A stretch of DNA of 64,000 nt from a phage. The DNA lies in sequence record PZ534511.1. The stretch is one strand, 5' to 3'. Under the pieces are notes generated by a model. The model worked only from the letters and a program-made list of their open reading frames with translations. It searched no databases and was not told where the DNA came from. Made by a program: the position numbers and the translations under genes. This document shows, in pieces, positions 16,329 through 29,516 of the stretch (position 1 is the stretch's first letter; each line of letters starts with the position of its first letter).

Positions 16329-16562
16329 ATGAAAGTTAAATTTCTTACAGATTTAGGATACCCTTCCTTGGTTGACTGCATCGGTAAAATTGTGGAAGCA
16401 AAACGGCTATCTGCAAACGATAATGTTGTCATGGTTAAGGGAAAAGATTTATTAGCTGCAGGTGCAGAGTCTGGCAGGATCTCTCCTGACTATACGTATT
16501 ACCTGTCTTTAAGCAATCTACCAGAACGAGGCGGCAAAGGCCTTGAAGTTGTGGAGGAGTGA
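16329..16562 (+). CDS. small protein, member of MKVK...VEIVEE paralog family
   Basis: MKVKFL...G.DLLAAGA...GLEVVEE resembles ORFs at 19993-24375. Confidence 0.5.
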   Translation: MKVKFLTDLGYPSLVDCIGKIVEAKRLSANDNVVMVKGKDLLAAGAESGRISPDYTYYLSLSNLPERGGKGLEVVEE

Positions 16563-19714: not shown

Positions 19715-19996
19715 ATGAAAAAGGTTAACAGTGGTGAAGTTGAGTTTAAACTTGTCGGGAAAGGCACTTACTGGGAAGTTCGTCAAAAGGTATATTTGTT
19801 CGGTCTTATTCCCTATTGGTCTAAATTCTACTGGGGAGCTAACGAGTTGGGAAGATACGCCACCAAATCAATGGCACTTATTGGTATAGCAGAGTACATT
19901 GCAGCCAGAGATAGGGTTGGAGACACTTATTACTATACTGCGGACGATATTCGTAACAGTGTTTACGTCCCACAACCACCTGATGGAGACCGTTGA
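19715..19996 (+). CDS. hypothetical protein
   Basis: ATG with GGAG RBS. Confidence 0.45.
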   Translation: MKKVNSGEVEFKLVGKGTYWEVRQKVYLFGLIPYWSKFYWGANELGRYATKSMALIGIAEYIAARDRVGDTYYYTADDIRNSVYVPQPPDGDR

Positions 19997-20220
19997 TGAA
20001 AGTTAAAGTTTTAGATTCAAGCTTCTATATTGGTCAAGAGCCTTTGGTTGGAAAAGTGTTTACCGCTGTTCCTAATAAAGATTACCCTGACCTTTTAAAA
20101 ATAAAAGGGTCAGCTCTTATTGCCGCTGGCGCATCTCAGGAATGCTTTGACAGTCAGTGGACCTACAACTTTGCCCTAGGAGAGGATGTGGAGATAGTGG
20201 AGGACGATCATGAAGGTTAA
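19993..20220 (+). CDS. small protein, MKVK...VEIVE paralog family
   Basis: MKVKVLDSSFYIGQ...GSALIAAGA...DVEIVED. Confidence 0.5.
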   Translation: MMKVKVLDSSFYIGQEPLVGKVFTAVPNKDYPDLLKIKGSALIAAGASQECFDSQWTYNFALGEDVEIVEDDHEG

Positions 20221-20464
20221 AATTCTTGACTCTAACGTCTACTTGGGACAATCCTTCCTGAAAGGAAAGGTCGTACCTGCGGCATACTTCGAATGGTTGC
20301 CTGACAACGATCCTGTGCGTCAGAAGCATTCCACTGTATCACACTGTGTGGTATTTATTCGCGGGTCAGATCTGATCAAAGCTGGTGTCCCCAAGTATTA
20401 CTTTGAGGAAGAACATTACTATGCCTTCGGTGTAGGAACAGATGTAGAGATTGTAGAGCGGTAG
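20210..20464 (+). CDS. small protein, MKVK...VEIVE paralog family
   Basis: MKVKILDSNVYLGQ...GSDLIKAG...DVEIVER. Confidence 0.5.
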   Translation: MKVKILDSNVYLGQSFLKGKVVPAAYFEWLPDNDPVRQKHSTVSHCVVFIRGSDLIKAGVPKYYFEEEHYYAFGVGTDVEIVER

Positions 20465-20465
20465 T

Positions 20466-20864
20466 ATGAAGAACAAGCTTTTCAAAGTAACAATGAAAAT
20501 TCGCGGAGCTTGGAGCGTAAAGCAAGGACGTATTCCAGAATTTGAGAAAGACTTCTACGTAGTCTCCACCTCGGAGGAGGCTGCATGCTGGCAGGCTGGC
20601 TATGCCTATGCAAGAACATGGTACGAAGGGTACCAGACTGGTGGCTATGACGGAGAAATTATCAGCAAAGGTGCAGAAGAAATTAATGTGTTGACAAGTG
20701 AAAAAGTTTTTGTTATAGTGCATCCAGATTCCAGAGTGAAGCATTACTGGAATGCCAGAACAAAAACTTGGACACCGTTTGCAGATTCTGCTACACCACT
20801 TTTAAACCAAAAAGCTCTTGACTCTGCCCCGAGCTATGGGGTTGTTGAAGAAAAGCTAAACTGA
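20466..20864 (+). CDS. hypothetical protein (paralog of 22676-23071)
   Basis: shared HP.S...YW......WTP...T.L pattern. Confidence 0.5.
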   Translation: MKNKLFKVTMKIRGAWSVKQGRIPEFEKDFYVVSTSEEAACWQAGYAYARTWYEGYQTGGYDGEIISKGAEEINVLTSEKVFVIVHPDSRVKHYWNARTKTWTPFADSATPLLNQKALDSAPSYGVVEEKLN

Positions 20865-21178: not shown

Positions 21179-21207
21179 TTGACACAACGCTTCAGCTATA
21201 GTATTAT
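21179..21207 (+). promoter_or_regulatory. sigma70-like promoter (TTGACA-17-TATTAT) upstream of hpf
   Basis: -35/-10 hexamers. Confidence 0.55.
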
Positions 21208-21259
21208 TGTTTTCAAAGAGAGATGGTTGTTATTCTCCCTTCCTTGAGAGGAGCACGTT

Positions 21260-21577
21260 ATGCAAATTGAGATCACTGGCAACGTAGAAATCACCGAAGG
21301 TATGGTGTCTTTCATTTCCCACAAAATGTCAAAACTGGAGCGTCTACATCCTTCTGTAAATCATGCACGTGTAAGTGTAAAAGTTGAAAATGATCACCAG
21401 GAAGTTATGGCGTTCATTTTTGACACTTCTGGAAAAGAAGTTATTGCCAAAGCTAAAGGCAGTGATGCTTACGAGGCAACTGACCGTATGGTAGATGTTG
21501 CAGCACGTCAGCTGGCTAAATGTGGTGGAAAGAAAGGTAAAGGGAAAGGAAAAGTAAAGATTGACTTTGGAGAATGA
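21260..21577 (+). CDS. hpf: ribosome hibernation promoting factor / RaiA family protein
   Basis: MQIEITGNVEITEG...KLE...VSVKVEN...GSDAYEATDRMVDVAARQLAK closely parallels E. coli HPF (MQLNITGNNVEITEA...DMYAAIDGLIDKLARQLTK), recalled from memory. Confidence 0.8.
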   Translation: MQIEITGNVEITEGMVSFISHKMSKLERLHPSVNHARVSVKVENDHQEVMAFIFDTSGKEVIAKAKGSDAYEATDRMVDVAARQLAKCGGKKGKGKGKVKIDFGE

Positions 21578-21586
21578 GGTGCTACA

Positions 21587-21688
21587 ATGGGCGTGATTAA
21601 GAAATTAGTCCCAAGTGTAGAGATTGCATGCTTTGAAATTATGTTTGCAATCGCAGTTGTAGTTAATGTGTTAGGTTACGGCTATTGA
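21587..21688 (+). CDS. 33-aa hydrophobic micro-protein (below ORF-track cut-off)
   Basis: GAGGTG RBS; single TM-like stretch. Confidence 0.3.
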   Translation: MGVIKKLVPSVEIACFEIMFAIAVVVNVLGYGY

Positions 21689-21714: not shown

Positions 21715-21984
21715 ATGAAAATTAAATTATTCAAAACTGAGCTGGCAGACAAAAACTGTGGACTGGTTGAAGGCATGATTGTTGAAGCACAACCAGTGGA
21801 CTACATGAAGGTGGTTCGTGATGCCTTGGGTGAAGGTTTTGATCTGATGGAGCCAGCTCTGCGAGAAGATGTCATCGAGATGGCTAAAAAGCACACACCT
21901 GAAGGTCTGGTGGTGTTTGTTGCACCGGGTAACGGAGAAGAGTTGATTGTAACTCCGGATGTGTATGAGATTGTAGAGGAATAA
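21715..21984 (+). CDS. small protein, MKVK...VEIVE paralog family
   Basis: MKIKLFK...ends VYEIVEE. Confidence 0.5.
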   Translation: MKIKLFKTELADKNCGLVEGMIVEAQPVDYMKVVRDALGEGFDLMEPALREDVIEMAKKHTPEGLVVFVAPGNGEELIVTPDVYEIVEE

Positions 21985-22339: not shown

Positions 22340-22346
22340 TAATATG

Positions 22347-22676
22347 AAAGTACGCTTTATTGGTGAAACAATTCCTGTGCATCTCCGGTCGCCTGAGGAT
22401 TCTGCAGATCTTGCATCTCAAAAGGCGAGAGGTTATGATAAGAAAGTAACCTCAACTGATGTAGTGCTTGAGGCTACTAGTCTACCTGACCCTGCTGCAT
22501 TCTTTAATCATTATGGGTACTATTTCAGCAATCTGATGAATATCGGTGAGCTTGTGTTTATTAGTGGTGGAGAGATTGTTAGCAAGCTTGGCGGCGATCC
22601 GGATGTCTTTCATGAAACCTGTCCTTTTGCATTTGTGGTAGGTTCAGATGTGGAAGTTATTGAGGAGGTGCGGTAA
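22347..22676 (+). CDS. small protein, MKVK...VEIVE paralog family
   Basis: MKVRFIGE...ends DVEVIEEVR. Confidence 0.5.
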   Translation, partial: KVRFIGETIPVHLRSPEDSADLASQKARGYDKKVTSTDVVLEATSLPDPAAFFNHYGYYFSNLMNIGELVFISGGEIVSKLGGDPDVFHETCPFAFVVGSDVEVIEEVR

Positions 22677-23071
22677 TGGTAAGCCTATACCGTGTTGAGT
22701 ATAGCTCAGATACTGTATACAACGTAAGAAGCAAAGATCGCAGCGACAGAGTGCAAGAAATGTATGTTCTTGCCGACAGTCCGTTATCTGCAGCGTTCAA
22801 GGCAGGGGCTCTTGCATCTCGTTGGAAATTTGAAGGCGGATCTTTCTATGAAGAAACCCTTGAAGATTCTGTTGTTATTTCTTCTGTAGAGGTTTCAGAT
22901 GACTACGAAGGGAAAAAGTTCGTAATGCGGCACCCACACAGCAACATTGCGTACTACTGGGATGTTCTGAACAACGAGTGGACCCCAGATCTTCAGAAGG
23001 CTACTGTGCTAACACCGTTTTTGGCAGATAAGTTCCCACCAGAAGGTAATTTATCCGCACTGTTTCAGTAA
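22676..23071 (+). CDS. hypothetical protein (paralog of 20466-20864)
   Basis: shared RHPHS..AYYWD....EWTP...ATVLTPF pattern. Confidence 0.5.
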   Translation: MVSLYRVEYSSDTVYNVRSKDRSDRVQEMYVLADSPLSAAFKAGALASRWKFEGGSFYEETLEDSVVISSVEVSDDYEGKKFVMRHPHSNIAYYWDVLNNEWTPDLQKATVLTPFLADKFPPEGNLSALFQ

Positions 23072-26183: not shown

Positions 26184-26210
26184 AGGACGCTCTGTGGCGT
26201 CCTTTTCTTT
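26184..26210 (+). terminator. rho-independent terminator
   Basis: AGGACGC-ucugu-GGCGUCCU hairpin followed by UUUCUUU. Confidence 0.65.
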
Positions 26211-26372
26211 ATCTGGTGCACGATTGCATACCTTGGACAGATAATCTCGTTACAGAGCGTTTAAGAGCTTCCTACAAACAAATCTCTCTTTCGAGCGTAG
26301 CGAGAACGCACGTCCGTTTTGACCCAAATCACCATACGCTCGGATTTTAACCAAACCCTCGCGGCGTTTCTG

Positions 26373-26401
26373 TTGACACATTACCGATCCAGTGATAGTA
26401 T
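26373..26401 (+). promoter_or_regulatory. sigma70-like promoter (TTGACA-17-TAGTAT)
   Basis: -35/-10 hexamers. Confidence 0.5.
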
Positions 26402-26421
26402 CCACACATAGTTTGTAGAAT

Positions 26422-26523
26422 ATGGAGTACACAATGAGAACATTGTCCGAAGTTTTAGTGGTGATCCTGATGATCATTACGTCCATAGCGGCTGTTGCCG
26501 GAATACTCACGGGTGGAACATGA
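26422..26523 (+). CDS. 33-aa hydrophobic micro-protein (below ORF-track cut-off)
   Basis: single TM-like stretch; stop overlaps next ATG. Confidence 0.3.
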   Translation: MEYTMRTLSEVLVVILMIITSIAAVAGILTGGT

Positions 26524-26732
26524 TCAACACACATGCATCTGAAGAGACATCCGAAGGAGTGACCATATGTCCCTTGGATGAGCCAGTTAAAGAGGAAAAC
26601 TTAGATTCTGAGGACTCTTCATCTTCGTCCCAGACAGATCCTGAGGCTGATGACCTGACGTGGGAGGACATCGTAGATATCTGGTTCTCTATTATGCCTG
26701 AGCACGAAGAGTTCAGAGGTGGTAGACTATGA
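26520..26732 (+). CDS. hypothetical acidic protein
   Basis: ORF; Ser/Asp/Glu-rich. Confidence 0.4.
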   Translation: MINTHASEETSEGVTICPLDEPVKEENLDSEDSSSSSQTDPEADDLTWEDIVDIWFSIMPEHEEFRGGRL

Positions 26733-26771
26733 AGCACCGAGCCCACACAGGTTCCTCATGCTAAAGCATGG

Positions 26772-27982
26772 CCTGAAGAGGCAAACGTGTATAATTCTTG
26801 TGCATTGGAACGTATAAAACCCTGTTCACACTCTCATTCCCAGAGGAGATTTTATGAAGATAGAAATATTTGGTGGGGCTGACAACACTCGTGGCCTGAT
26901 TTACCTTGAATTCGATGAATCATACCTGCCAGAGGTGTTAAATATAGACTCTGTTGCTGAGGCTTTGGGAGTAAACCCTAAAGAACTCCACTCTTGTGCT
27001 GAGATCGATGGTTGGGAAGAGACCATGAATATTGATTTCAGTGAAGTAGAGGATGAACCGCTGGACTGACACACAATTAGCTGCCCGGCTAAAGTGCTGG
27101 AAGCACCTATAACACATCTTTCAACTAAATTTCCTACCACCACAATCACTTACCTCCCACACATGACTGTTTGCTTGTTTAGTGAGCAGTCATGCCTTGA
27201 CATTCTTGCCTATCCTGATAAAATTAAGTTCTTCTCTTTTCTTTTACCGAGTAATTCGGGTTTTCTGTTCTCTTCGGTTTGAAGGGGTATGGAGATACAC
27301 CTGAGTGAACAGGGTGAACAACCGAACCATTGGCTATGGCATTAGCATGGCGAAGCGGACGGGTGACGAAAGAGTGGCCGGAGGACACCAGTCACTGCCA
27401 TATGATATATGGGTGATAACCTGAAGAGTCTGAATAAGTGTTTAAGTACCAGTCAGAGGAAAAGGTGAATGGTAGCCGAAGGGGGAGGGGGGTTTCTTGT
27501 ATCTTTAATTTGTATATTATGTATACACTTGTAAACCAATCTCATCTGAATCTGTTTACCACACAAGGCGGATAGAGACAAATATTACCTATTAAACTTG
27601 AATTATTTATAGAAAATACCACAACACCACTTAAGTCTTTGATTTTACACACAAATCTTACAGATATTCAGCCTCCCTATTTAACATACCTGTAACATAT
27701 TCCATACTCTACCTGTCTGATCAATTTACTCCCACCACATCCCCACATTTTCCTTGTCTGTACTACCCCTGCCCCGCCGGGAGTCCCGTCATATCTGGCT
27801 TTCCAGCAAATATCACACCCACAAATATCATTGCCTGAAGAGGGTTTCATCCCATAACACATGCCTTACCTGAAGAGCGCTTCATACACCACGTAAATTT
27901 TTTAATTGACCTCCCCTTCCCCGCCGGAGAGGTTGGCTTTTCCCACACAGACCTGAAGAGTCAGCCAGAAATATCTGAAGAG
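26772..27982. repeat. six dispersed copies of 9-mer CCTGAAGAG (one TCTGAAGAG)
   Basis: copies at 26772, 27420, 27834, 27869, 27952, 27974 on the same strand. Confidence 0.6.
26854..27069 (+). CDS. hypothetical acidic protein
   Basis: ORF with GGAG RBS. Confidence 0.45.
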   Translation: MKIEIFGGADNTRGLIYLEFDESYLPEVLNIDSVAEALGVNPKELHSCAEIDGWEETMNIDFSEVEDEPLD

Positions 27983-28610
27983 GGTCTAGTTCTGCCCTGT
28001 CATGAGCGGTAGCGACTGGAGTGCTGCCAGGCGGACGAAATGGGAATACTTCTCATTCTTATAATAATTCTCAAATATCGAGGCAGTGAGGCAAATTAAT
28101 AGGTGAGGCCGTTCACACAGTGGCACAACATTTGCAACCTATCTTGTGGGGGTGAATGAGAATACCTATCATTGTGAGAATAGTTATCATTACGGGCAAT
28201 TTAACATAATACCCATTATGCGCACCACTGGCGATACATACAGGGATTGATAACATGAGTTACAGTTTACGCATATAACAATCATATTTCTTACTATTTG
28301 TGTGGGATATAGTTAGCAGCCAATAGATTAGATATTGACCTGCAGACTTCCAACCGTCTAGACGTCTAAACGCCCACACAACAAGGATTATACATACATC
28401 GCTGAATGTAAACAGGGCCGCAAAAATGCTACCATACCAGTTTGTAAATTTTTCATGCAGCACTTGACAAAGAGGAGAAAAACTTGTCTGACACACCGGA
28501 CACAATATGGCACAATAACGACTGTTATTATTTCATGTTTCACTGTTCACGTATAGATTGTTCCCGCATAGACTGTTTACACCTTGACAGTTTACACAGA
28601 TATGATAAGC

Positions 28611-28860
28611 CATGACATTCGTTTGCATGAAAACAATTAGCAAGTTAACAATTAACAAGTTAATAATATATGACATAATATAAAAGCAGGGCAACTATTA
28701 GCAGATCTATAGTTGCCTTGCTTGTTATGTCATGATTAACTAAATACAAGGCAACTATGATCTGATTAATAGTTTGCAGACAAACTATCACGGGGGTGAT
28801 GGTTACTGCTTTTATATTATGTCGCGACTCCGTCGCGCCATGCCATTCGTTTGCATAGTT
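28611..28860. repeat. cluster of inverted and direct repeats (candidate origin or regulatory site)
   Basis: 18-mer CATGMCATTCGTTTGCAT x2; 21-bp inverted pair at 28668/28807; AAGGCAACTAT and its complement x4. Confidence 0.55.
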
Positions 28861-29470
28861 GCCTTATTGTTACAGGTAAAACAATTACATTATTAATTAT
28901 TTCTTATCTTTCTGTTAGTCATCTAATGATTCCAGTTAGTATAGTAACGTACAGTAAACATTAGACGACTAAAGATTTCTCTGCTTATGATAACTTGCCG
29001 TGACAATTTCGGACTGTTTACGAAAAATGTTGACACCTGAGCTGATTTATGTTATGCAATTTAAACGAATAATTATTTTATGCAGGTATTGACTATTCCG
29101 TTATTCTATGGTTGGAATAAATACTTAGCAAGCTATAGAATGGTGAGCGTACGTAAATTCTGAAATCTGGCGGCTATAGTTATACTCGATTTTTCGCATA
29201 GGACACGCTTTCGATGTTGTGTAAGTGTATGACTTATAAGAATTTTTATTTGTTGACAAGATATTGAAGATATGCATCAGGTTAAAATTTATGCAATAGC
29301 GGCATTACGTGCAATTTTGGGAGAGAAAACGGGCAAAAATGGCCTTGCTACCACACAATGAAAAATTATGCAATAGTTATTTTCCATGTATATTTGTACA
29401 GTGTGTGGGATTAATAGCTAGTCAATTATTCCACTTGCCAGGTAGGGCCGTTTATGGTAGGAGAAGAGCA

Positions 29471-29498
29471 GACAAAAAGAAAGGGGCCTAAGCCCCTT
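29471..29498 (-). terminator. rho-independent terminator for the minus-strand gene block
   Basis: GGGGC-uuag-GCCCC hairpin followed by U-run on minus strand, just after stop of 29517 gene. Confidence 0.55.
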
Positions 29499-29516
29499 GA
29501 TAATTCAGTTAAAAAA

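What the first reader, a model, noticed from the sequence alone, without database searches (positions are those of the whole stretch)
21179..21577. Phage-encoded ribosome hibernation factor (HPF/RaiA) with its own consensus promoter
Seen: the 105-aa ORF aligns along its length with E. coli HPF as I recall it (MQIEITGNVEITEG vs MQLNITGNNVEITEA; KVEN; GSDAYEATDRMVDVAARQLAK vs GQDMYAAIDGLIDKLARQLTK) and ends in a Lys/Gly-rich tail. A TTGACA-17-TATTAT promoter lies 50 nt upstream. Established: HPF/RaiA bind the 30S subunit and inactivate or dimerise ribosomes. Inference: the phage may modulate host translation or preserve ribosomes during infection; an HPF homolog in a virulent phage is unusual to my knowledge.
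Basis: partly seen in the sequence, partly recalled or inferred. Interest (0 to 1): 0.65.

Follow-up and report, generated by a model that had tools for sequence, protein, structure and literature searches.

The report
Known rV5-type phage HPF homolog
The window carries the well-conserved ribosome-hibernation-factor (HPF) homolog of rV5-like E. coli phages behind a host-type promoter; the gene is real, but it is already annotated, published and once tested, so only its function remains open.

Summary
ORF 21260-21577 (+, 105 aa) matches Pfam Ribosomal_S30AE (E 4e-13) and TIGR00741 above their cut-offs. It is 42% identical to E. coli HPF, and its AlphaFold model superposes on ribosome-bound HPF at 1.0-1.1 A. 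TTGACA-17-TATTAT sits at 21179-21207.

It is not new. The window is an rV5-like Vequintavirus, and the rV5 record annotates both this gene (gp139) and this promoter (P144). Mizuno et al. 2019 described the rV5 HPF and expressed it in E. coli. They found it in lysate but not in ribosomes washed with 500 mM NH4Cl, and saw no effect on 100S.

What I add:
- The gene is present in 118 phage records and sits at the same position in two uncultured sister lineages (64% and 57% identity).
- It is under strong purifying selection (dN/dS 0.03-0.18) and is not close to any cellular HPF.
- It keeps R83, K87, K91, K25 and D75. It loses K80, T53, Y30 and R33, and gains K64, K66 and R28.
- It carries a disordered basic tail, longer than the host HPF tail.
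- The promoter is one of about 20 near-consensus sigma-70 promoters in the window.

The most likely function is reversible binding in the 30S decoding channel, giving a RaiA-like protective or anti-dimerisation effect. This is inferred, not shown.

The parts
21179..21207 (+). Sigma-70-type promoter: -35 TTGACA at 21179-21184, 17-nt spacer, -10 TATTAT at 21202-21207. Equivalent to promoter P144 of phage rV5.
   Evidence: Sequence. Consensus scan gives 11/12. Conserved as TTGACA-17-TAT(T/C)AT in six other Vequintavirus loci. Annotated in rV5 and Gotham. About 13-fold excess of such sites over shuffles.
21214..21259 (+). Predicted 5' UTR (the transcription start is inferred, not mapped). It has a 7-bp hairpin (21217-21223 / 21234-21240) and a 4-bp helix (21241-21244 / 21249-21252) that pairs UCCU with the AGGA of the Shine-Dalgarno AGGAG (21249-21253, 6 nt before the ATG).
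   Evidence: RNAalifold on 6 loci finds 11 pairs, one compensatory (A-U to G-C), some broken, and a covariation term of about 0. The single-sequence fold is no better than shuffles (z = +1.3). This is weak evidence only.
21260..21526 (+). HPF/S30AE core domain, residues 1-89: beta1 2-7, alpha1 13-29, beta2 33-43, beta3 46-55, beta4 60-67, alpha2 70-89.
   Evidence: Pfam PF02482 covers residues 3-88. AF2 pLDDT is 89-96 for each 10-residue block of residues 1-80 and 78 for residues 81-90; the whole-model mean is 84.4. Foldseek gives 1.0-1.1 A rmsd to V. cholerae HPF 4hei and E. coli HPF 6h4n_x.
21527..21577 (+). Disordered basic C-terminal tail, residues 90-105 (GKKGKGKGKVKIDFGE), plus the stop codon. 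It is encoded by a purine-rich, slippage-prone stretch.
   Evidence: pLDDT below 50. Net charge of residues 88-105 is +4, against +2 for the host HPF tail and -4 for the RaiA tail. The tail is truncated or frameshifted in Murica and P0003. It differs in sequence but stays basic (+3) in the two sister lineages.
21561..21588 (+). Second promoter-like site (TTGACT-16-TACAAT with an extended -10 TG) overlapping the 3' end of the HPF gene. It would drive the downstream genes.
   Evidence: Scan gives 10/12. The Gotham record annotates a promoter at the same place. TTTACA-17-TATAAT or TACACT lies at the equivalent position in L006 and L002.
21587..21688 (+). 33-aa hydrophobic ORF immediately downstream (the rv5_gp140 equivalent). 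It is a neighbour and is not shown to be functionally linked.
   Evidence: Sequence. Annotated in rV5, nomo, YP-6 and Murica. No Pfam hit. Absent from the L002 and L006 lineages.

Best explanation
This is the HPF-family gene of an rV5-like Vequintavirus, the equivalent of rV5 gp139. An ancestor of these phages captured it long ago from a gammaproteobacterial short HPF, and it has been kept under purifying selection since.

Shown:
- Family membership by sequence profile.
- The beta-alpha-beta-beta-beta-alpha HPF fold (predicted).
- Conservation and synteny across three phage lineages.
- A conserved near-consensus sigma-70 promoter directly upstream.

Inferred:
1. Host RNA polymerase transcribes the gene from the onset of infection, as part of the block of small genes that all carry such promoters.
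2. The protein binds non-translating host ribosomes in the 30S channel between head and body (the A/P-site region), as short HPF and RaiA do. It would use the retained contact residues R83, K87, K91, K25 and D75, plus the phage-specific basic residues K64, K66 and R28 on the RNA-facing sheet and helix alpha1.
3. The long flexible Lys/Gly tail, 18 residues beyond K87 against 8 in host HPF, adds non-specific rRNA affinity. It probably runs toward the platform and anti-SD region where RMF binds.

The net effect would then be RaiA-like. Idle ribosomes are held as protected, quickly reusable 70S/30S particles. They are kept out of host RMF/HPF-driven 100S dimers and away from RNases while host mRNA disappears.

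I put about 0.95 on 'genuine, functional HPF-family protein', about 0.65 on 'still acts on the ribosome', and about 0.4-0.5 on the specific protective or anti-dimerisation outcome.
For: - Profile matches are above curated cut-offs. The best PDB sequence hits are all HPF.
- The AF2 core is confident and superposes on ribosome-bound E. coli HPF at 1.1 A.
- Identity is 42% to HPF against 24% to RaiA.
- dN/dS is 0.03-0.18 among Vequintavirus alleles with dS up to 0.58.
- The gene is present in 118 phage records. It sits at the same syntenic position in two uncultured sister lineages at 64% and 57% identity.
- Of the residues listed as ribosome contacts in HPF/YfiA cryo-EM structures (bioRxiv 10.1101/2025.10.07.680626), R83 (m4C1402), K87, K91, K26 (phage K25) and D75 are retained.
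- All three phage lineages add K64 and K66 on beta4 and R28 on alpha1.
- The tail is disordered and basic in all three lineages.
- The promoter is conserved and co-oriented with about 20 similar ones.
- Independent HPF-fold genes in the jumbo phages GAP32 and PBECO4 suggest a recurrent benefit for large virulent enterobacterial phages.
- Mizuno et al. proposed the anti-dimerisation idea.
Against: - The only experiment on record failed to find rV5 HPF in 70S or 100S fractions and saw no change in 100S.
- Four contact positions are replaced in all three phage lineages: K80 to V/T/I, T53 to F/R, Y30 to L/I and R33 to S/T.
- The score against the enterobacterial HPF equivalog model is less than half its cut-off (57.5 against 125).
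- At least one isolate record (YP-6) has a stop at codon 4, and Murica and APECc02 have truncated tails. The gene, or at least the tail, may therefore be dispensable in the laboratory.
- The timing of expression and the transcription start are not measured. No transcriptome covering this gene was found.
- The path of the tail and any clash with RMF are pure inference.
Confidence: 0.5

Rival explanations
1. Host-translation shut-off factor. The protein is made early in quantity, occupies the A/P sites of free 30S/70S and blocks initiation on host mRNAs, acting as a true hibernation inducer or inhibitor. Phage mRNAs escape through abundance or timing.
For: The HPF fold and the retained decoding-centre contacts R83 and K87. 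A strong sigma-70 promoter. The extra basic residues and tail would raise rRNA affinity.
Against: The window shows no mechanism that would spare phage mRNAs. Expression in E. coli from pBAD to OD 1 gave normal ribosome profiles, and no toxicity was reported. No RMF homolog is present in the window to drive 100S formation.
Confidence: 0.15
2. Repurposed HPF fold. The protein no longer binds the ribosome stably and acts on another target. That target could be another structured RNA, since the fold resembles dsRNA-binding domains. Alternatively the protein could act as a decoy or inhibitor for a host factor or defence system that recognises HPF-like proteins or idle ribosomes.
For: The published pull-down was negative. 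Four canonical contact residues are replaced consistently in all phage lineages. The clade is isolated: only one 50%-identity representative cluster scores below E 1e-10 among 1.84 billion representatives. Weaker Foldseek hits include dsRBD proteins.
Against: The RNA-facing surface became more basic rather than less, and R83, K87 and K91 are kept. The negative experiment used a 500 mM NH4Cl wash and late-exponential cells, and the authors themselves flag both as confounders. No alternative partner is suggested by the gene's context, because all neighbours lack any family match.
Confidence: 0.2
3. Functionless passenger: a captured host gene that is drifting.
For: A nonsense codon at position 4 in the YP-6 record, and truncated tails in Murica, APECc02 and P0003.
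Against: dN/dS is 0.03-0.18. The gene is retained at the same locus in three lineages whose synonymous sites are saturated. It is intact in nearly all of the 118 records. Its promoter and Shine-Dalgarno sequence are conserved.
Confidence: 0.03

Closest known systems
rV5 gp139 / ORF144 (YP_002003641, ABI79209), the 'HPF' of Mizuno et al. 2019
   Same: This is the same gene. It is 97% identical over all 105 aa and lies at the same position after the same promoter P144.
   Different: Three substitutions only: V33A, H35Y and T56N relative to rV5. The window protein is 100% identical to those of phages DrSchubert and Mangalyan.
E. coli / Enterobacterales short HPF (YhbH, 95 aa; PDB 2rql, 4v8h, 6h4n)
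   Same: 42% identity over residues 1-87. Identical secondary-structure order, with 1.1 A rmsd to the ribosome-bound form. R83, K87, K91, K26, K23, K42, E44, D69, Y71, D75 and D79 are conserved.
   Different: - It falls below the equivalog cut-off (57.5 against 125 bits).
- One-residue deletion in the beta1-alpha1 loop, restored in nomo and Murica, and a one-residue insertion before beta4.
- K80, T53, Y30 and R33 are replaced.
- K64, K66 and R28 are gained.
- The tail is 18 residues rather than 8 and more basic.
- It is not in the rpoN operon.
- It is driven by a phage sigma-70 promoter rather than by stationary-phase control.
- No RMF partner is encoded in the window.
RaiA / YfiA / protein Y (113 aa)
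   Same: Same Pfam family and fold. Both have a C-terminal extension beyond helix alpha2. From established knowledge, the RaiA extension blocks RMF binding and so blocks 100S formation. The behaviour I propose for the phage protein is RaiA-like.
   Different: Only 24% identity, and the NCBIfam RaiA model scores 20.3 against a cut-off of 158. The RaiA tail is acidic at its end (net -4) and the phage tail is basic (+4) (the RaiA sequence was recalled from memory). The RefSeq product name 'RaiA' for the phage protein is therefore imprecise.
HPF-fold proteins of the jumbo phages GAP32 and PBECO4 (K4F6Q6, L7TII8)
   Same: HPF fold in large virulent enterobacterial myoviruses (Foldseek E 1e-6 to 5e-6, rmsd 1.6-2.2 A). 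GAP32 is listed next to rV5 by Mizuno et al..
   Different: Only 22-24% identity. They belong to a separate PHROG (phrog_8990, against phrog_12469 for this protein) and probably represent an independent acquisition.
Long HPF (Gram-positive and Thermus type, about 180-190 aa)
   Same: The N-terminal S30AE domain.
   Different: No linker and no C-terminal dimerisation domain. The protein ends 18 residues after alpha2 with a disordered tail.

Membership tests
HPF/YfiA (Ribosomal_S30AE, PF02482 / TIGR00741) | Profile match above the curated threshold across the whole domain | tested here: met
   PF02482 scores 50.2 bits against 23.7, covering residues 3-88 on model positions 1-83 of 88. TIGR00741 scores 50 bits against 40.9.
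HPF/YfiA (Ribosomal_S30AE, PF02482 / TIGR00741) | beta-alpha-beta-beta-beta-alpha fold | tested here: met
   The AF2 model (mean pLDDT 84.4; 89-96 per 10-residue block over residues 1-80) has elements in the order E-H-E-E-E-H. The top 36 Foldseek PDB hits are all HPF, RaiA or pY chains, the best at rmsd 1.0-1.1 A and TM 0.87-0.94. This is a prediction, not an experimental structure.
HPF/YfiA (Ribosomal_S30AE, PF02482 / TIGR00741) | Conserved basic track on helix alpha2 (K80, R83, K87, K91) and sheet residues that contact 16S rRNA (m2G966, m4C1402, m3U1498) | tested here: inconclusive
   R83, K87 and K91 are kept. K80 becomes V (T or I in the sister lineages), T53 becomes F (or R) and position 86 is A. 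New lysines appear at 64 and 66. The surface is partly conserved and partly remodelled.
HPF/YfiA (Ribosomal_S30AE, PF02482 / TIGR00741) | Binds the 30S subunit or 70S ribosome | not testable with these tools
   The published test on the rV5 ortholog was negative after a 500 mM NH4Cl wash of late-exponential cells, and the authors consider the result non-decisive (PMC6375957).
Enterobacterial short HPF (NCBIfam equivalog NF007780 / PRK10470) | Score at or above the equivalog cut-off, meaning the same function can be assumed | tested here: not met
   57.5 bits against a cut-off of 125. Identity to Enterobacterales HPFs is 37-44%.
Enterobacterial short HPF (NCBIfam equivalog NF007780 / PRK10470) | Acts with RMF to convert 90S into 100S dimers | not testable with these tools
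   No RMF-like ORF in the 64-kb window (tblastn E 4.2 or worse, RMF query recalled from memory). Expression of rV5 HPF did not change 100S.
RaiA / YfiA (NCBIfam equivalog NF007654 / PRK10324) | Score at or above the equivalog cut-off, and a long C-terminal tail with an acidic end | tested here: not met
   20.3 bits against a cut-off of 158. 24% identity. The tail is basic rather than acidic.
Long HPF | C-terminal dimerisation domain after a linker | tested here: not met
   The protein is 105 aa, has a single Pfam domain, and residues 90-105 are disordered.

The most novel reading that the evidence does not exclude
The phage protein is not a hibernation factor but an anti-hibernation or anti-dormancy factor. 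It would combine an HPF-type core, which occupies the HPF/RaiA site only weakly and reversibly (hence lost in salt washes), with a long basic tail that occludes the RMF site. Infected cells, including stationary-phase or defence-arrested cells that induce RMF, could then not dimerise or degrade their ribosomes. This would make ribosome hibernation a host antiviral response that phages actively counter.
Probability: 0.25. Interest if true: 0.6.

Novelty: already known. Interest (0 to 1): 0.2.

Why it matters
As a discovery it adds little. The gene and its promoter have been in the rV5 GenBank record for years, and the protein was described and expressed by Mizuno et al. in 2019. What stays open is why a whole genus of virulent coliphages, plus two uncultured sister lineages and, independently, some jumbo phages, keeps a diverged hibernation-factor homolog under strong purifying selection. 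The one binding test was negative under conditions that may strip such factors. If the protein is shown to hold ribosomes out of host-induced hibernation or to shield them from nucleases, it would link ribosome hibernation to phage-host conflict. It would also bear on how well therapeutic rV5-like phages work against slow-growing E. coli.

Tried and rejected
- **5' UTR regulatory structure.** The single-sequence fold is no better than shuffles (z = +1.3). The alignment fold gives one compensatory pair and a covariation term of about 0. I kept it only as a weak note.
- **Rfam and tRNA scans of the whole window.** Nothing found.
- **Second HPF copy.** The '(x2) sigma 54 modulation factor' label in the nomo, naswa and magaca records suggested one. 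In nomo it is a mis-transferred product name on the downstream 89-aa ORF, whose window equivalent (21715-21984) has no Pfam hit.
- **RMF or a second S30AE gene in the window.** None.
- **Recent transfer from the host.** Rejected. Identity to Enterobacterales HPF is only 37-44%, and only one close representative cluster exists among 1.84 billion. This differs from the 'relatively recent' wording in Mizuno et al.
- **IMG/VR pattern scan.** It returned only 2 loci, both rV5-like, so it says nothing about wider distribution.
- **Literature on Vequintavirus transcriptomics or any later functional study of this protein.** Nothing found.
- **Polikanov 2012.** The paper on HPF, YfiA and RMF on the 70S was not retrievable. 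Contact residues were taken from bioRxiv 10.1101/2025.10.07.680626 instead.

Full report
**1. The observation**

The + strand ORF at 21260-21577 encodes the 105-aa protein MQIEITGNVEITEG...KCGGKKGKGKGKVKIDFGE. It matches Pfam Ribosomal_S30AE (PF02482) at E 4.4e-13. The score is 50.2 bits against a gathering cut-off of 23.7, covering residues 3-88.

It also passes the NCBIfam HPF/YfiA family model TIGR00741, with 50 bits against a cut-off of 40.9. It stays far below the two enterobacterial equivalog models: HPF 57.5 against 125, and RaiA 20.3 against 158.

The best matches among solved structures are E. coli HPF chains 2rql, 4v8h and 6h4n (E about 1e-12, residues 1-89 on 1-89).

The promoter is exactly as described: TTGACA at 21179-21184, 17 nt, then TATTAT at 21202-21207. 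An AGGAG Shine-Dalgarno lies 6 nt before the ATG.

**2. Where the window comes from, and what is already recorded**

A 3-kb stretch around the gene is 94-96% identical to more than 100 Vequintavirus (rV5-like) genomes. The protein is 100% identical to those of phages DrSchubert and Mangalyan and 97% identical to that of rV5.

The rV5 record (NC_011041) annotates the orthologous CDS as rv5_gp139 / ORF144. Its product name is 'ribosome-associated translation inhibitor RaiA', with a note of similarity to the Klebsiella sigma-54 modulation protein. The record also annotates the orthologous promoter as 'Sigma70-type promoter; P144'. Other records call the gene 'ribosome hibernation factor', 'hpf' or 'sigma 54 modulation factor'.

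Mizuno et al. 2019 (PMC6375957) list the rV5 protein (ABI79209, 105 aa) among virus-encoded ribosome-associated proteins. They place it among gammaproteobacterial HPFs and speculate that viral HPF might compete with the host factor and prevent dimer formation.

They also tested it. With pBAD expression in E. coli NM522, peptides were found in crude extract. None were found in 70S or 100S fractions, and the 100S level did not change. Cells were harvested at OD600 = 1, and ribosomes were pelleted through a 500 mM NH4Cl cushion. The authors name growth phase, true loss of binding, and salt stripping as alternative explanations.

Mathieu et al. 2020 (PMC6969025) note hpf in five new rV5-like phages 'as already described'. 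Searches for any later functional or transcriptomic work on this gene found nothing.

The finding is therefore real but already known.

**3. What I could add: distribution and evolution**

tblastn finds the gene in 118 phage records, all at least 90% identical and all rV5-like.

An exhaustive phmmer pass over 1.84 billion 50%-identity representatives finds only one representative cluster at E below 1e-10. The next hits are cellular HPFs at E 8e-8 or worse.

That close cluster (P0004, 64-65% identity, 103 aa) and a further protein found with a profile (P0008, 57% identity, 104 aa) lie on phage contigs of up to 137 kb (P0004) and up to about 74 kb (P0008). Both sit at the same syntenic position, among the same run of small ORFs. 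The P0004 lineage has no close cultured relative: only 28% of 5 kb aligns, at 77-83% identity.

Enterobacterales HPFs are only 37-44% identical. The capture therefore predates the split of these three phage lineages and is not recent.

Within Vequintavirus, Nei-Gojobori dN/dS is 0.03-0.18 with dS up to 0.58. Between lineages, synonymous sites are saturated while dN is 0.26-0.38. This is strong purifying selection, and it excludes a decaying passenger gene.

Exceptions seen:
- The YP-6 record has TAG at codon 4, and its annotated CDS starts at Met15.
- Murica and APECc02 have a truncated tail.
- One metagenomic variant has a frameshifted tail.

**4. Structure and surface**

AlphaFold2, run with a 35-sequence alignment, gives a mean pLDDT of 84.4. 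Block means are 89-96 over residues 1-80, 78 for residues 81-90, and about 42-44 from residue 91 on. Residues 90-95 and 97-105 score below 50. The secondary-structure order is beta1-alpha1-beta2-beta3-beta4-alpha2.

Foldseek against the PDB returns only hibernation factors among the 36 significant hits. The top ones are V. cholerae HPF (rmsd 1.0 A) and E. coli HPF inside the 100S ribosome (6h4n_x, rmsd 1.1 A).

I compared the protein with the contact residues tabulated for HPF and YfiA cryo-EM structures (bioRxiv 10.1101/2025.10.07.680626).

| Status in the phage protein | Residues (E. coli numbering unless stated) |
|---|---|
| Retained | R83 (contacts m4C1402), K87, K91, K26 (phage K25), D75 |
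| Replaced in all three phage lineages | K80 to V/T/I, T53 to F/R, Y30 to L/I, R33 to S/T |
| Gained in all three phage lineages | K64 and K66 on the alternating, RNA-facing side of beta4; R28 on alpha1 |

(Alignment.) The RNA-binding face is thus remodelled but not de-charged. I read this as continued RNA binding, most simply to rRNA, with altered detail. This is inference.

The tail beyond K87 is 18 residues with net charge +4. Host HPF has 8 residues (+2) and RaiA has 26 (-4). In the sister lineages the tail sequence differs but the charge stays at +3.

**5. Expression signals**

Near-consensus sigma-70 promoters (at least 11/12) occur 10 times on each strand of the window, against 0.77 +/- 0.93 expected. 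Nine of the ten + strand sites lie in 1-27.2 kb, where genes run on the + strand. All ten - strand sites lie in 30-56 kb, where genes run on the - strand.

The HPF promoter is therefore one of many. This agrees with the rV5 paper's view that the phage uses unmodified host RNA polymerase widely, and that the gene lies in a block of 88 small ORFs (PMC3606486).

The promoter is conserved as TTGACA-17-TAT(T/C)AT in all Vequintavirus loci I compared. A TTGACA is retained in the P0004 lineage but not in the P0008 lineage. No terminator separates the gene from its upstream neighbours, so read-through transcription is also likely.

A second promoter-like site (21561-21588) overlaps the 3' end of the gene.

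The 46-nt leader can form a 7-bp hairpin and a 4-bp helix touching the Shine-Dalgarno sequence. Statistical support for these is weak.

**6. Mechanism**

I commit to the following, with the steps marked.

- *Shown:* a functional, selected HPF-family protein with an HPF-like predicted fold and a host-type promoter.
- *Inferred, about 0.65:* it still acts on the ribosome, in the 30S decoding channel.
- *Inferred, about 0.4-0.5:* the outcome is RaiA-like. Idle ribosomes would be held as protected, reusable monomers, with the long basic tail interfering with RMF and so with 100S formation. The outcome would not be host-type hibernation.

Rivals:
- An early translation shut-off factor (0.15).
- A repurposed fold with a non-ribosomal target (0.2). 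This is supported by the negative pull-down and the four replaced contact residues.
- A functionless passenger (0.03). This is close to excluded by dN/dS.

**7. Comparison and verdict**

The protein works like, and belongs to, the HPF/YfiA (S30AE) family. It is closer to short HPF than to RaiA, so the RefSeq name 'RaiA' is imprecise. It is not an equivalog of either and has no long-HPF dimerisation domain.

HPF-fold proteins also exist in the jumbo phages GAP32 and PBECO4 at 22-24% identity, probably through independent capture.

- **Novelty:** already known.
- **Interest:** low (0.2), because a specialist would find nothing surprising in the observation itself. The unresolved function is a modestly interesting open question. 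The most novel reading still allowed is an anti-hibernation factor (probability about 0.25).

Noticed in passing
window 26200-29500: A stretch of about 3.3 kb has no ORF of 100 aa or more on either strand. It lies between convergent transcription units (+ terminator 26184-26203, - terminator 29498-29481) and corresponds to the unexplained 'non-coding' 2.6 kb of rV5. It holds a cluster of inverted and direct repeats with core GGCAACTAT at 28672-28872, including perfect 18-nt arms at 28672-28689 / 28806-28823. There is no Rfam hit and no tRNA.
   Followed up: partly
window 20210-20864 and 22344-23071 (also 16329-16562, 19996-20220): The HPF gene lies between two copies of a duplicated two-gene module. 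ORF 20210 is paralogous to ORF 22344, and ORF 20466 to ORF 22676, with two further paralogs of the first family upstream. None has a Pfam match.
   Followed up: partly
whole window: There are twenty near-consensus sigma-70 promoters (at least 11/12), ten per strand, against about 0.8 expected. Their strand follows gene orientation, which switches near 29.5 kb.
   Followed up: yes
window 21561-21688: A TG-extended promoter-like site overlaps the HPF stop region. It is followed by a 33-aa hydrophobic ORF (the rv5_gp140 equivalent). That ORF is present in Vequintavirus but missing from the two sister lineages L002 and L006.
   Followed up: partly
L009 (phage YP-6, OQ376695) 401-715; L012 (Murica) 401-700: The YP-6 record has a TAG stop at codon 4 of the HPF gene, and its CDS is annotated from Met15. 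Murica and APECc02 have a truncated Lys/Gly tail. These are natural or sequencing-derived variants that could serve as knock-out or tail-less alleles.
   Followed up: partly
GenBank MG0656xx records (e.g. L010): Eighteen 'UNVERIFIED: Campylobacter phage' records are about 94% identical to rV5-like E. coli phages, and the one record opened (L010, MG065647) is classified under Vequintavirus in its taxonomy line. The host label looks wrong.
   Followed up: no
L008 (phage nomo) 859-1118; window 21715-21984: The 89-aa ORF downstream of HPF is labelled 'sigma 54 modulation factor' in nomo; naswa and magaca carry the same doubled label but were not opened. It has no S30AE match, so this is a propagated mis-annotation.
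   Followed up: yes
protein P0122 (not in the window): A 1160-aa protein in the representative library matches the phage HPF in nine separate stretches (E 3e-9). This suggests an unusual multi-repeat S30AE-domain protein.
   Followed up: no
window 21217-21252: The leader of the HPF mRNA can form a 7-bp hairpin close to the predicted 5' end and a 4-bp UCCU/AGGA helix that masks part of the Shine-Dalgarno sequence. Both are retained across six loci despite loop indels, but with only one compensatory change.
   Followed up: partly
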